NCBI RefSeq assembly: GCF_030684315.1
Contig: NC_081396.1
Span: forward strand, 5,518,001 to 5,582,000
DNA: 64,000 nt
Origin: Stegostoma tigrinum
Lineage: Eukaryota
Direction: 5' to 3'
Both the position numbers and the translations under genes were made by a program. The notes beneath the pieces were generated by a model. That model worked only from the letters and a program-made list of their open reading frames with translations, was not told the origin of the DNA and did no database searches. Below are positions 14,457 to 37,928 of the stretch, in pieces (the stretch's first letter is position 1; the number at the start of each line of letters is the position of its first letter).

Positions 14457-14918
14457 ATGGGACTCGTTCTTATCTTCACATTGTGTGCCTATTTACACCG
14501 TAAGTAGAAATCAGGCAACTTAACATTGCCGGCATTTTGTATAAAGCTCCCCGTGTCCATTAAAACAGCAGGCGTTGTATCTTGTCAAGGTCACTTCAAG
14601 CCCATTAATGTATCTCTCTTTAATTTCCAGGATCTTTCAGTCAGTCAGTGGTACAGACGCCGCCAGCAGTAACCACAAAAGAGTGTCAGTCTCTCAACAT
14701 CGACTGTGTTTTCTATGGTGGTTTCTACCGTCGTCCTTTAACTGAAGGGACTTTCTTCAAACAACGCCAGGCTGGATCAGAGCGGGAGCGGGTCTCGGCA
14801 GGGGGGAGGTTTAATGTGAGGATAAATAAAGAAGAAAAGACATTTTCGCTGGAAATTCAGGATGTGAAAGTTGAAGACACCGCCACCTATTATTGCAAAG
14901 CAGAGTACCTTTACGATG
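14457..14918 (+). CDS. NAR-TCR (IgNAR-like) V segment: leader exon 14457-14499, V exon 14631-14918
   Basis: Leader MGLVLIFTLCAYLH, GT at 14500, AG at 14629-14630, in frame. V reads QSVVQTPPAVTTKECQSLNIDC...TFFKQRQAGSERERVSAGGRF...FSLEIQDVKVEDTATYYCKA. It has the IgNAR-like shortened FR2/CDR2 region (ERVSAGGRF) and an extra FR1 Cys at 14684-14686. Confidence 0.9.
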
Positions 14919-14956
14919 CACAATGATGGGGCTCAGCTTCCCGTGACACAAAAAAG
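14919..14956 (+). other. 22/23-class RSS (CACAATG-22-ACAAAAAAG)
   Basis: Follows the NAR V. The best nonamer sits at a 22-nt spacer. Confidence 0.85.
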
Positions 14957-15271
14957 CCCTGTCTGTCCATTATCACAGAAACAGGGTAAAATCCCAACCC
15001 TATCTGCCCTGAACACCCCATACATTCACCTCTCAGTGCCACCTCCACAGTCCTGTTTATATTGGAACTGGAATGACACTGTTATTATCTTCAGTATTGT
15101 AAATGCTGAGTAGTCTGATGGTGATGTCTTTTGTGGGATCGTTGTCAGTGTATCAGTGTTGGAAACAACTGATCCCAGTCAGTAGTCACGGATACTGGAA
15201 GTAATCCATTTCTGAAACTGACAACTGGAGCCGCTGTTTAAACAAAGATTCCATACCTGAGTAATACCAGG

Positions 15272-15343
15272 AGATTTGGTGCTGACTGGAAACACTGTGT
15301 GAATTTTGGGACTTTCACAGTGAATCAGAGCTGATCAAGTAAC
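15272..15343 (+). other. D segment TGAATTTTGGGACTTT (15300-15315) flanked by two 12-RSS
   Basis: 5' side AGATTTGGT-12-CACTGTG (15272-15299). 3' side CACAGTG-12-TCAAGTAAC (15316-15343). Both heptamers are perfect, the nonamers are divergent. Confidence 0.85.
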
Positions 15344-15653
15344 ATGTGCAATTAAAATGCAGATTCTGTAGGCTTGTACCAAATCGTGTATTGGTAGAAA
15401 TCCGAGCCTTTGTTTAATTTTATTTACTTTTCGGATTTCTGTTACAGTTCTTTAACATTGTTCCCAATTTCAACAAAGAGGTCATTCCCCGTTCGTCTTC
15501 TTCAGTCATGTCATGAAGATTTTAGAGTTTCCTCAACAACAGCTTGAAATGCGATGTTATGTCAAATTTGGAATTGTGTATACTGATTCAAATCTCCTCG
15601 ATAACAAAGCCGAGTCAACTAGTGATCTTCACCCAGGACAATGGAGGGTCAGT

Positions 15654-15692
15654 AGTTTTTGCATTGGTGTGTCTGAGAATGGTGTCACTGTG
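15654..15692 (-). other. J-associated 23-RSS (AGTTTTTGC-23-CACTGTG)
   Basis: Exact 23-nt spacer, perfect heptamer, near-consensus nonamer. Confidence 0.92.
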
Positions 15693-15745
15693 TTGGAAGA
15701 GCGCCACTGCAGATGGGTCCGGGACAGAAGTGACTGTTACAGCTG
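15693..15745 (+). CDS. NAR-TCR J segment (WKSATADGSGTEVTVTA)
   Basis: The G-x-G-T-x-V-T-V motif has Asp at the usual Phe/Trp position. A phase-1 GTAAG donor follows at 15746. Confidence 0.9.
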
Positions 15746-20957: not shown

Positions 20958-21267
20958 ATTCCCCATCCCTTGTGTCCCGCAGCCCAGCTGTACAAAGCTC
21001 TGTTACCGGAGACACTGTTACTTTCAGCTGTGAATATTCAGGATTCTGTCGTTACACAGTTTCCTGGTACACGCAGTCCCCAGGAGGGGGTCTGAAATAT
21101 TTGCTTCAGAGCGACACATCAGGAGGTCAGAATGAAGAAATTGCAGCGGGAGGCAGAATTTCTGCTGCTGTTGACTCCTCGACAAAAATCAGTCGATTAA
21201 AAATCTCCACAATACAACTGAGTGACTCTGCTGTGTATTACTGTGCACTGGGTCGGCACACAGCACA
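20958..21267 (+). CDS. Leaderless supporting TCR-delta V segment of NAR-TCR
   Basis: Acceptor ttttattccacAG at 20956-20957 is in phase with the J donor (G|AT = Asp). It reads DSPSLVSRSP...FSCEYSGFCRYTVSWYTQ...SDSAVYYCALG, with canonical Cys/Trp plus an extra CDR1 Cys at 21047-21049. No leader exon was found upstream. Confidence 0.88.
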
Positions 21268-21654
21268 CACAGTGATCGAGAACACGGTCAGAGCAGTACA
21301 AAAACAGAATGGGAATTGTACACAAAATGATACAGAGCATGGAGACAGCTGTAAAATCACATGAACATACTGGCGATTATGGCAGTTATTCAGAGCACAG
21401 CGAAAGCTGTACAAAACCCTGAACAGAATGGGAATCATAGAGAAAATTATGCAGAGCATGTACAAACACATAAATACGCTGGCGATTGGAACACAGTAAC
21501 ACAGAGCACGGAGACAGCTGTACAAAAACCTGACCAGAGTGGGAATTGCAGACAAAATTATACAGGACACGGACAGAGTTGTATAAAAACATGAACATGC
21601 CACAGACTACAACGCCGTAATAAAGAGCATTGATGAAAGAGCCATACAAAAGCC
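21268..21654 (+). repeat. Tandem array of ~7 23-RSS-derived units; first unit is the V's own RSS (CACAGTG-23-ACAAAAACA)
   Basis: Heptamer positions are 21268, 21323, 21381, 21442, 21492, 21553 and 21613, with related spacers and nonamers. The unit at 21492-21530 is CACAGTA-23-ACAAAAACC. Confidence 0.85.
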
Positions 21655-22226
21655 GTCACCGACTGAGGATTACAGATACTGCAATGCAAACAGCAGAGAC
21701 AACAGTACGGAAATAAAAATGCGTGCAGTGCTTTGCAGATGTGTGATGCGGGAAATTTGGGAACCAGATCTGCACAATGTCAATGGCACTAACTGTTTGG
21801 GAATCCAATATATACATCGAAAACGTGTTTTGTTTCAATGAATACATTTGGTATTTTGTGAAACTTGAATTCAATTATCCTTTACTGAAATTTTGAACAC
21901 TGTTATTGGAAAATTGGTCCACGAGACAGATGATTTGTTCTTGTATTTTACACAGGGGGGTGGAAGGAGAAAGCAGATACAATGAGCACATGGAAAATTT
22001 CGCCACGTAAACATATGGGCTAATCAAATGGAGCCCTGGAAAAGCAGAAATAATCATGGGGCTAATTGTATTTAAACTTCAGACATAAGGGATATTGACA
22101 ATGCGACAGATGCATGAATATTTGATTTTAAATTTTTATTTCAGTTTTCGTGTCTAAGAATAAACCTCAGTCGAATTGCAGTTGGACAAATACAATCAAA
22201 GAAGCTTTTTTACATAAAAGCATCTA

Positions 22227-35448: not shown

Positions 35449-36117
35449 TGTTATCTATAAATTAATGCTCTTTATCTGCTTACACAGAGGTATGCAGACA
35501 TTGTCTTAAGCTTCCTGCCTGAATAGAATGAGGTATAAACTGTGTAAGTCTTTATCTTCCTGCTCAGAGGTATGTGGAAACTGTCTCAAATAAGATTTGG
35601 TGGGCAACGTTTGTAATGCTGTGAGACTTCTGAGATCCTGTAAGTATGTAACTTCCGTTTCTGCTAAAGGGTCCAGGGCACTGACTTTTGTTCAAACCAG
35701 ACACTTCAGTGGCTTGAACTTACATTCTGTCACTTCGGCAACTTGAAGCCGCCTCCTGCCGTTAGCAGCCTCTTCGCGAATGATCAATACTGTATCCTGC
35801 TCTCTTTATGTTTTTGATTTAGTAATTGTTTTGCATCATGTTATTGTCCGATGAGGTGATTGTTTCATGTAACATGCCATTGTGAGATGTAAAATTGCTC
35901 TATGTATTATGCACTAGATAAGGTATAAAAAGCAGGGACTGTCCGCTGCTCAGGGAGAAGCAGTTATGAGGCTCTGCACTCTGGGCCGGGTTGAGGACAA
36001 TGATCGTCCACAGCTTGTACTTGCTTTGTAATAAAGGATTTGTATTTTTTTTTCTAAACAGGTCAGTGTTTTGTCATTGCATCAAGTCCGTGAGGGTGTG
36101 TGAGAACGAACCTAACA
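35449..36117 (+). mobile_element. Probable solo LTR
   Basis: TGTTA...TAACA termini, three gaggtat sub-repeats in a U3-like part, a TATAAAA box near 35925 and AATAAA near 36030. The TSD is not clean. Confidence 0.55.
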
Positions 36118-36516
36118 CTACCTCCGACTTCTGCTAAGTTTGCTAAAATCCCACGTGCTAAACTATTTAAAATTCTTTTCCTAAGTCATCAGTTTCTTTA
36201 TGGTTGCCTTTTCTGTCTTGGCCTAAATTCCCATCTACCCTTGCAACGGAAAATTTTCCTTCCACAGTCCATTAGCCATTTGAAAGTTGTTGTTCAATCA
36301 GTTTCCAACAACTGTTCTGGCAATGCATTTCACATCATGAGAAAACAACATTTCAAAGAAAATCTCACTTCATCTTCTCATGAGTTTATATTTCGATGAA
36401 AGAAAATAGATTCAAATGGACTACCAACAAAGTTAATTGCCTCAAAACCAGAACAATTCTGGTTTTGTAAACAATGACTGATTAATTAATGCTGTTCAAT
36501 GTTATCATTGTTAGTG

Positions 36517-36826
36517 GTTCCAGTTCCCTGGTATCCTGGAGTCGGCCCCTACAAACCACGGCTACCAGGGACTTAGTAACTTTAAGTTATGAATATCCAG
36601 GGACCTGTCAATACACAGTTTACTGGTACAGTCAGTCCCGAGGACAGGCTCCAAAATATTTGCTTGGGAGACAGACTCCAGCAGAGCAGAATAAATAAAA
36701 TGCTGCTGGAAAAATAATTTCTGCTTCTATTGATCCTGCGGAAAACATCTGTTGGTTAATGATCTCTCAAAAGTAACCAATTGTCTCCGTTTTGTATTAT
36801 GGTGCATTGAGTTGGCCCTCAGCCGA
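36517..36826 (+). pseudogene. Pseudogenised supporting TCR-delta V (paralog of 20958-21267)
   Basis: Reads SSSLVSWSRPLQ...LSYEYPGTCQYTVYWYSQ...QNK*NAAGKIISASID...QK*...YYGAL. It has two stops, Cys23>Tyr, Cys104>Gly and the acceptor AG changed to TG, but the CDR1 Cys is kept. Confidence 0.85.
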
Positions 36827-37037
36827 CATAGTGATACAGAGCGTGGAGCAAGCTGCACCAAAACATGAACACGGTCGAGATCACAGGCACAGTGATACAG
36901 AGCATGGAAAGAGCTGTACATAAACCTGAATGTGATACAATTGAAGACAGAGTGATACAGGGCATAGAAACAGCTGTACAAATATCTGGACATAGTAGGT
37001 TTACAGATGCAGGGACATAGAGAACGGTACAAATGTT
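36827..37037 (+). repeat. Tandem array of 3-4 23-RSS-derived units
   Basis: CATAGTG-23-ACCAAAACA (36827), CACAGTG-23-ACATAAACC (36888), CAGAGTG-23-ACAAATATC (36948) and a truncated unit at 37008. Confidence 0.85.
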
Positions 37038-37077
37038 TTAGCAAAGATTTGCAGCTCGAATTGAGACTGGAGTTGTT

Positions 37078-37928
37078 GATTGGTTCACTGAGCTGACTGG
37101 TTTTCATGCAAATGTTTCATTCCCACTTCAAAGCGACACCCTCAGTGCTGTGTCGGCTCGGTTGAAGCATTGTGTTCTGGTCCATTCCGAACTTATGTGG
37201 TCCAGGCTGTCATGGTGAGTAATTCTGTTTCCATCTTTACTCTATAGTGCTATGTGGACATCTTCATCCACCATTGCCTGACAAATAAGCTACACCAAGA
37301 AGACACTGTATGCCCCAAAAAACTGGACACACTACCTGATATTAGAAACGTATAAGAATTGACCACAAGACTCCAGCATCTTGTTGGAATGACGATAGCA
37401 CACAAACCAGCAGCCGCACTTCGCCTCTCAAAAATGAAAGACTACATATGCACCATGACCAGGACAAATTTGATACGCAAAATACAAAATATGCAGTAAC
37501 TGCAAAAAGAAAATACGTTGGCCAGACCAGCAGGAAACAGGCGACTAGGATATATGAACATCAGCTCACAGCAAAATAGCACAACCAACTCTCCTTCCAT
37601 TCTATTCGCTCCAGCAAAGAAGGCCATCAGTTTAACAGGGCCATCATAACAGCTTTAGGACAAGCAAAACTAGGACAAGCAGGAGAACTCCTGGAAGCCT
37701 GATTTATAACCATTGGTACCATAAGCAAATATCTTCAAATCAACCCCTCCTACATCCCACTATGAAGCAAAACCAGGCTTAGAACTACCCACCATTGCAA
37801 TCCAGACCATATAAATTCACAATGGAACAGACCAACAGCGCTTCAACAGAGAATCGACAGCACTGAGGATGTCACATAGTAGGAGTACGAAATATTGCAT
37901 GAAAACCAGTCAGCCCATCTAACCAACA
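37078..37928 (+). mobile_element. Old Penelope-like remnant bounded by ~70-bp inverted terminal copies
   Basis: 37078-37152 is the approximate reverse complement of 37856-37928. The internal sequence resembles a decayed GIY-YIG C-terminus. Confidence 0.5.

What the first reader, a model, noticed from the sequence alone, without database searches (positions are those of the whole stretch)
36827..37037. Second RSS array after a diverged supporting-V paralog suggests a family trait
Seen in sequence: the dead supporting V is followed by three units with exact 23-nt spacers at 60-61 bp period, one with a perfect heptamer (36888), plus a truncated fourth. The spacers (atacagagcatgga...agctgt) resemble those of the 21.3-kb array, while the linkers differ. 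The ordinary V segments whose 3' flank is visible (1243, 58929, 60691, 62645) have a single RSS. Inference: the RSS array is old and specific to NAR-supporting V genes, or it expanded independently twice.
Basis: partly seen in the sequence, partly recalled or inferred. Interest (0 to 1): 0.7.

Follow-up and report, generated by a model that had tools for sequence, protein, structure and literature searches.

The report
Repeated cut signals behind shark V-gene
One family of shark T-cell-receptor gene pieces carries a row of two to eight copies of its DNA cut-and-join signal instead of the usual one; the row was inherited from a single origin that likely predates the shark-ray split, and the spare copies are likely passengers that decay like ordinary DNA, though they may help the gene-shuffling enzyme find these pieces.

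Summary
Confirmed. A dead, orphan NAR-TCR supporting V-delta (36519-36826) is followed by three 23-RSS units at 61/60-bp period and a fourth with a 9-bp deletion. It is a family trait: in this zebra shark genome 12 of 13 supporting-V-family loci have two to eight units, against 0 of 83 ordinary V hits and 0 of 9 NAR V examined. Units group by position across paralogs and 3' flanks are shared, so the array arose once, with local re-expansions. Read-through in predicted proteins shows it in other sharks and a sawfish, not in three elephant-shark proteins. Only the first copy shows RSS-specific conservation (p=5e-5; distal pooled p=0.50); distal DNA diverges like flanking DNA. A post hoc heptamer excess outside one clade (p=0.003) keeps a RAG-docking role open. 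In all 7 intact supporting V's every usable spare RSS lies beyond an in-frame stop, so a CDR3-length switch is unlikely. No RNA was available. The scan has noted this trait before, at other loci of this genome and in other genomes. I found no description in print, but three key papers were unreadable.

The parts
36519..36826 (+). Dead, leaderless supporting V-delta exon with its coding end; orphan (no NAR V-D-J of its own in the 15 kb upstream)
   Evidence: 48% identity to the intact supporting V at 20960, two TAA stops; cysteines and acceptor lost; no NAR V-D-J hit upstream
36827..36887 (+). Unit 1: 23-RSS 36827-36865 (heptamer third base C to T) plus 22-nt linker
   Evidence: score 9.9 on the ordinary-V RSS matrix, below all 54 training sites (15.3-28.3)
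36888..36947 (+). Unit 2: 23-RSS 36888-36926 with perfect heptamer, plus 21-nt linker; in open frame with the V end
   Evidence: score 22.7
36948..37007 (+). Unit 3: 23-RSS 36948-36986 (heptamer third base C to G) plus 21-nt linker
37008..37037 (+). Unit 4, with an internal 9-bp deletion across the heptamer end and spacer start
   Evidence: pairwise alignment with the paralog at C55:5702080
37032..37750 (+). Interspersed repeat abutting the array, shared with the paralog; not part of the array
   Evidence: 30 hits on other contigs to 37032-37100; very high contig depth at 37050-37127; 522 of 688 identical to the paralog's flank
21268..21713 (+). Sister array of 8 units behind the intact supporting V; alternating dimer structure; only units 1 and 5 are strong RSSs
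20960..21267 (+). Intact leaderless supporting V-delta with CDR1 cysteine
   Evidence: Pfam V-set 2e-13
14457..15745 (+). NAR V cassette that belongs to the intact supporting V: leader 14457-14499, V to 14918 with 22-spacer RSS at 14919, D 15300-15315, J 15693-15745

Best explanation
The array is a tandem amplification of a 61-bp unit (23-RSS plus about 22 bp) that sits behind the NAR-TCR supporting V-delta family and was inherited through cassette duplications, likely from one origin before sharks and rays split, and its spare copies are likely unselected passengers while the first copy is the working signal. Shown: family restriction, pairing of units by position, 2-8 units with dimer re-expansions, RSS-specific conservation of the first copy only, flank-like divergence of the rest. 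Inferred: unit number changes by slippage or unequal exchange; re-expansion refreshes some arrays from good copies, which is why strong spare RSSs exist; a RAG cut at a spare RSS would give a non-productive join in intact genes because of an in-frame stop, leaving the first RSS for a second join to a downstream J-delta. The copy at 36827 sits behind a dead orphan V and can have no productive role now.
For: Family restriction: 11 of 13 family loci have arrays of 3-8 units, one has 2 units, one decayed relic has 1; 0 of 83 ordinary V hits and 0 of 9 NAR V have a tandem copy. One origin: units 2 and 3 of the finding have the same-rank units of the paralog at C55:5702080 as nearest neighbours, all three ranks pair in the tree, within-locus identity is 0.676 against 0.652 between clades, and 3' flanks align among four clades at 0.64-0.75 over 211-334 columns. 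First copies: heptamer 71 of 75, nonamer 90 of 96, against spacer 193 of 252 and linker 167 of 216 (column permutation p=5e-5). Distal copies (48 units): heptamer 230 of 318, nonamer 332 of 412, spacer 852 of 1067, linker 635 of 862 (p=0.50). The first three heptamer bases are intact in 19 of 47 distal units; control triplets average 0.455. Between paralogs the distal array diverges like intron and 3' flank, e.g. 0.85-0.87 against 0.86-0.89 and 0.84-0.87 in the youngest trio. The most recently amplified clade has the most decayed spare heptamers. The strongest in-frame second units sit behind the four damaged V's. Three elephant-shark supporting-V proteins read past the first RSS with no linker or second unit (linker 9-10 of 22).
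Against: Outside the youngest clade the distal heptamers are better kept than the rest of the unit: 124 of 141 against spacer 380 of 488 and linker 312 of 405, column permutation p=0.003; the nonamer shows no excess (149 of 190, p=0.54). The split is post hoc and the copies are not independent. Only 4 of 40 full distal units have a spacer gap against 22 of 40 with a linker gap; the linker figure counts an inherited 21/22-nt variant many times. The finding's distal array is 145 of 171 identical to its paralog's, above the 76-83% of the surrounding block but below the adjacent intron (197 of 225). Protein P0030 (91% identical to a Mustelus supporting V) reads through five units at exactly 61 bp, compatible with 35 of 35 heptamer and 43 of 45 nonamer bases; against the zebra shark consensus the excess is significant (p=0.007), against its own consensus it is not (p=0.19). 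The array has been kept in 12 of 13 loci and across sharks and a ray. Ten of the 11 arrays keep at least one spare RSS with an intact CAC and a score of 10 or more.
Confidence: 0.55

Rival explanations
1. RAG docking or ratchet. Spare RSSs raise the chance that a promoterless supporting V, 1.1 to 4.8 Mb from D-J-delta and in inverted orientation, is captured. A first, non-productive join at a spare RSS carries the whole cassette next to D-J; the first RSS then joins by deletion to a downstream J-delta, giving a short D-less CDR3. Uncuttable copies could also just hold RAG.
For: All 11 array-bearing V's are on the + strand while D, 11 J and C-delta are on the - strand at C55:947-961 kb, so joining needs inversion; in mouse Ig-kappa, diffusional joining depends on strong RSSs (PMC11153149, abstract). 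A change at heptamer base 3 blocks cutting but not paired-complex formation (PMC7337519, passages). Heptamer excess outside clade A; five good units in P0030. In 7 of 7 intact V's the usable spare RSSs lie beyond a stop, so the intermediate would be silent. The family's coding end runs 11-20 nt past the YYCAx motif against 2-8 nt in most ordinary V's, as would suit joining without a D; the platypus TCR-mu supporting V joins V to J directly (PMC3457774, passages).
Against: No pooled conservation of distal RSS columns and none of the nonamer. Ordinary V's at the same distance and orientation have one RSS. Elephant-shark supporting V's show no array. Only the first RSS can give a productive join and only once, so the array adds no second chance, at most a higher capture rate (inference). 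No junction data at all.
Confidence: 0.3
2. CDR3-length switch: joining at the second or third RSS keeps one or two units in the coding join and adds about 20 or 40 residues to the supporting V.
For: The frame is open through unit 1 in 9 of 11 zebra shark arrays (first stop at 87 nt or later). Whale shark P0032 stays open to the third heptamer and sawshark P0025 to a second CAC heptamer.
Against: In 7 of 7 loci with an intact supporting-V frame no spare RSS with CAC and score of 10 or more is reachable before a stop; an open, strong second RSS occurs only at the 4 damaged loci (by clade 0 of 4 against 3 of 3). Thirteen of the 34 shark and chimaera proteins end at AQ or EQ right after the V, which fits a TGA formed by the first heptamer. 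A 61-bp period shifts the frame at each unit.
Confidence: 0.07
3. The units come from RAG activity in the germline (captured D segments with their 3' RSS, or repeated hybrid joints), not from slippage.
For: Each unit is a short G-rich piece followed by a 23-RSS, the layout of the 3' half of a D-delta (sequence).
Against: The linker matches the one D-delta found no better than chance (8 of 18, p=0.72). By my reading no deletion or insertion in 12 arrays ends exactly at a heptamer border and there is no head-to-head heptamer; I did not count this by script.
Confidence: 0.05
4. The arrays expanded independently behind different supporting V's.
For: Local dimer re-expansions exist (units 2 and 4 at C55:5397181 are 90% identical; alternating units in clade A).
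Against: Pairing by position across paralogs, within-locus identity about equal to between-clade identity, shared linker and shared 3' boundary.
Confidence: 0.03

Closest known systems
NAR-TCR supporting TCR-delta V of cartilaginous fish (Criscitiello et al. 2006, not readable here; described in PMC1845163, PMC12227049, PMC5931798, passages)
   Same: Leaderless V-delta with a CDR1 cysteine downstream of a leader-NAR V-D-J cassette, in the TCR alpha/delta locus.
   Different: The passages read mention no RSS array. The finding's own V is dead and has no NAR V of its own.
Canonical V-segment 23-RSS (heptamer, 23-nt spacer, nonamer; PMC7337519, passages)
   Same: Each unit has this layout; unit 2 scores within the range of ordinary V RSSs of this genome.
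   Different: Head-to-tail copies in one orientation behind one V, with no coding segment between them.
Secondary rearrangement: serial J use in TCR-alpha (PMC5931798, passages) and VH replacement at an embedded heptamer (recalled, not read)
   Same: A signal left inside a first join could be used for a second join.
   Different: Here the leftover signal is the V's own first RSS and the first join would be non-productive by construction; use is not shown.
Mammalian TCR-mu supporting V (PMC3457774, passages)
   Same: Second V domain of a three-domain TCR chain with a structural role; D-less V-J join in platypus.
   Different: Independent origin according to that paper; no RSS array mentioned in the passages read.

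Membership tests
NAR-TCR supporting V-delta | Sequence belongs to the supporting-V clade rather than to ordinary V's | tested here: met
   48% aa to the intact supporting V; 80% DNA to C55:5702080 and 67-73% to other family loci; intron homologous to other supporting V's
NAR-TCR supporting V-delta | No leader exon; spliced from the NAR J | tested here: inconclusive
   No leader seen in 35500-36518 by eye; acceptor AG lost at the homologous place; no RNA
NAR-TCR supporting V-delta | CDR1 cysteine (PMC1845163) | tested here: met
   GTCQY in the finding's V; GFCRY in the V at 20960
NAR-TCR supporting V-delta | Own leader-NAR V-D-J directly upstream | tested here: not met
   No NAR V-D-J hit in the 15 kb upstream. 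It is a second, orphan family member behind the 14.5-21.7 kb cassette, so it is filed as a pseudogene of the family, not as a working cassette
NAR-TCR supporting V-delta | Open frame with both canonical cysteines | tested here: not met
   Two TAA stops, LSYEY and YYGAL
23-RSS | CAC heptamer, 23-nt spacer, A-rich nonamer | tested here: met
   Unit 2 only (score 22.7); units 1 and 3 lack the third C
23-RSS | Cut by RAG with a 12-RSS partner | not testable with these tools
   No RNA holder listed; DNA contigs drop rare somatic joins
TCR D segment | 5' 12-RSS and likeness to D-delta | tested here: not met
   No inverted 12-RSS in the arrays; linker against D-delta p=0.72

The most novel reading that the evidence does not exclude
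Elasmobranch NAR-TCR uses a signal ladder as a two-step ratchet: RAG first joins at a spare RSS, which inverts the promoterless NAR V-D-J-supporting V cassette across megabases to the D-J-delta centre in a silent, stop-containing join, and then joins the first RSS directly to a downstream J-delta, giving a short D-less support loop like that of platypus TCR-mu. This would be a programmed two-cut V(D)J route written into the V segment itself.
Probability: 0.25. Interest if true: 0.82.

Novelty: new variant of a known kind. Interest (0 to 1): 0.5.

Why it matters
V segments normally carry one RSS. A whole V family that has carried several, likely since before sharks and rays split, is a natural test of what RAG does with competing signals in one orientation and of how inverted, promoterless V's are captured over megabases. 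If the copies are used, NAR-TCR assembly has an extra step. If not, the array is still a diagnostic mark of supporting V's, dead ones included, and a warning for annotation: automatic gene models read through it and give false C-terminal tails.

Tried and rejected
Tandem Repeats Finder at score 40 does not report either array; the units are too diverged. RNA evidence: no RNA holder listed. Laying four DNA runs of one sample showed no joint or loose end at a heptamer of either array; contigs drop rare joins, so this says nothing on use. An exact pattern for a D segment found only an unrelated site on C2; D and J were then found by reading C55:900-970 kb. A search with the P0030 tail returned only P0030. 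The metagenome scan gave 4 loci; the two read (L113, L115) look like bony-fish V's with one RSS, no shark array. A DNA search with the best-kept array hit only supporting-V loci, 5 of 5 candidates, so the unit does not look like a dispersed repeat; a genome-wide pattern search for two adjacent RSSs was not obtained. Pfam gave no family for 37346-37576 or for the first 58 residues of the dead V. Linker as D-delta: rejected. Linker as the usual flank of ordinary V RSSs: mean 5.2 of 22, best 12 of 22 among 53. Spacer-length constancy as proof of selection: not accepted; by my hand count there are about a dozen independent length changes each in spacers and in linkers. The RSS excess in P0030 did not survive use of its own consensus. 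Rows dropped: four spurious units at C55:5354411 (units 4-7, over-extension into a repeat) were removed; units with fewer than 33 aligned bases were left out of the distal counts and with fewer than 45 out of the tree; the 2-unit and 1-unit loci were not in the conservation counts.

Full report
Observation. The window holds 11 matches to a 23-RSS at up to 3 mismatches against 1.01 expected; three are these units and two are in the 21.3-kb array. The fourth unit has an internal 9-bp deletion against its paralog. The linkers are homologous to those of the 21.3-kb array (56% against 27% shuffled), though less alike than the spacers (75%). The V is a pseudogene. A genome-wide repeat begins at about 37032.

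Setting. The window is G000:C55:5518001-5582000. A protein labelled Stegostoma tigrinum is 100% identical to the V at 20960 and lies on a contig of the same length as C55, so this is the zebra shark. The window holds one complete NAR-TCR cassette: leader, NAR V with a 22-spacer RSS, D, J and a leaderless V with a CDR1 cysteine, matching the description in PMC1845163 (passages). The finding's V has no NAR V-D-J in the 15 kb before it. It and C55:5702080 are second, orphan supporting V's that were duplicated with a long block of flanking DNA. D, 11 J and a C exon that I take for C-delta from its position lie on the minus strand at C55:947-961 kb, with a larger J cluster below 917 kb. All 11 array-bearing V's are on the plus strand, so they must join by inversion (inference from the 12/23 layout).

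Family trait. I read C55:5.32-5.82 Mb whole, 2.01-2.05 Mb, and 25 10-kb pieces around V's at 0.97-2.24 Mb; V's at 2.3-5.3 Mb, at 9.1 Mb and on other contigs were not read. Of 105 V-like hits, 13 belong to the supporting family (12 so labelled plus C55:1706534), 9 are NAR V and 83 are other V hits, 53 of them with a recognisable first 23-RSS. Eleven family loci have 3-8 units, C55:1706534 has two, and a decayed relic at C55:5457212 has one. None of the 92 others has a tandem copy: their best downstream self-match is at most 23 of 39, against 26-32 of 39 for the 11 arrays; one has an isolated RSS-like site 329 nt downstream.

Age and history. Units pair by rank across paralogs, and identity within a locus (0.676, 105 pairs) is close to that between clades (0.652, 928 pairs). 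The 3' flank aligns among four clades. So the array arose once and was copied with the cassettes; alternating units in clade A (four loci, including 21.3 kb) and at C55:5397181 show later dimer re-expansions. Support values in the unit tree are low at depth, so I use only the rank pairs. For other species I had proteins only. Gene models that read past the V show a second unit in whale shark (P0005, P0032), epaulette shark (P0027), a sawshark (P0025) and the sawfish Pristis (P0040; linker and second heptamer at 61 bp, p=0.0015). P0030, unnamed and 91% identical to a Mustelus V, reads through five units if its tryptophans are TGA read under code 4 (inferred). Three Callorhinchus proteins read on without a linker or second unit. 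Most other models stop too early to tell. An origin after the chimaera split and before the shark-ray split (roughly 250-300 million years, recalled) is therefore likely, on thin sampling.

Selection. First copies keep heptamer and nonamer (95% and 94%) well above spacer and linker (77% each), p=5e-5. The 48 distal units do not (72%, 81%, 80%, 74%; p=0.50). Distal arrays diverge between paralogs at the rate of the intron and the 3' flank. Against this, outside clade A the distal heptamers are kept at 124 of 141 (p=0.003) with no nonamer excess; the split was made after seeing the data, and the best-kept 7-column windows run from the heptamer into the first spacer bases. Spacer gaps are rarer than linker gaps per unit (4 against 22 of 40), but inherited variants are counted many times. 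P0030's RSS excess depends on the consensus used. In 7 of 7 loci with an intact supporting-V frame every spare RSS with CAC and a score of 10 or more lies beyond an in-frame stop (one has none); the 4 damaged loci, the finding among them, have a strong second RSS in open frame. Whale shark P0032 and sawshark P0025 are possible counter-examples, so this is a lead, not a rule.

Mechanism. The working signal is the first RSS (its conservation is shown, its use inferred). Spare copies with CAC and a nonamer would be RAG substrates by established RSS rules (PMC7337519, passages). A join there keeps the first RSS and a stop between V and D, so it is non-productive; the first RSS could then join a downstream 12-RSS J-delta by deletion (inference). 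That gives no extra chance of an in-frame join, only a possibly higher capture rate. I put 0.55 on passengers, 0.30 on docking, 0.07 on a CDR3 switch, 0.05 on a RAG-made origin and 0.03 on independent origins. No expression or junction data were available.

Literature. Searches gave no title or abstract start on tandem RSSs behind a V ('tandem RSS' with RAG: 0 papers, 40 of 113 were listed). Passages read: PMC12227049, PMC3964593 (one supplement searched, no hit), PMC5931798, PMC1845163, PMC10322711, PMC7337519, PMC6795676, PMC3457774; abstract of PMC11153149. Criscitiello 2006, Ott 2021 and Deiss 2019, the papers most likely to show germline supporting-V flanks, and their supplements could not be read, so absence from print is not established. 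Earlier notes of this scan report the same trait at two other loci of this genome and in other genomes; they are unchecked and I do not count them as support.

Verdict. Real, family-specific and old; a new variant of a known kind. Function is unproven and the sequence evidence leans towards decay. Interest 0.5.

Noticed in passing
G000:C55:947204-961074 against 0.97-5.8 Mb: D, 11 J and the putative C-delta are on the minus strand while all array-bearing supporting V's and most V's read are on the plus strand, so most joins at this locus would be inversions.
   Followed up: partly
window 36810-36826 and 21251-21267; all family loci: The supporting family's coding end runs 11-20 nt past the YYCAx motif, against 2-8 nt in most ordinary V's.
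   Followed up: partly
G000:C55:5740309, 5783928, 5637350, 5702080: Damaged cassettes: CDR1 cysteine lost at 5740309; first cysteine and seven residues lost at 5783928; two stops in the NAR V at 5637350 in front of an intact supporting V; conserved tryptophan lost in the orphan V at 5702080, whose acceptor is intact.
   Followed up: partly
L044:7212-7560 (G000:C55:5457212): Decayed supporting-V relic with one degenerate RSS and no array; the one exception among 13.
   Followed up: partly
window about 35580-36120: A repeat of about 540 bp upstream of the dead V, with TATA- and AATAAA-like motifs; two reverse copies lie in the paralogous block. It may be a solo LTR (resemblance recalled).
   Followed up: no
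window 37346-37576: Stop-free stretch with a KYVGQT motif that recalls the GIY-YIG endonuclease of Penelope-like elements (label recalled); Pfam gave no hit.
   Followed up: partly
G000:C55:5726336 (minus strand): Ordinary V with an isolated RSS-like site 329 nt past its RSS, not a tandem copy.
   Followed up: no
P0030: Every consensus stop of the array is W in this protein, so the record was likely called with TGA as tryptophan; its CDR1 cysteine is also W.
   Followed up: partly
window 14919, 15272-15322, 15654-15692: The NAR V cassette uses a 22-nt V spacer, a D with a 12-RSS on its 5' side and a likely one on its 3' side, and a 23-RSS J, an IgH-like layout.
   Followed up: no
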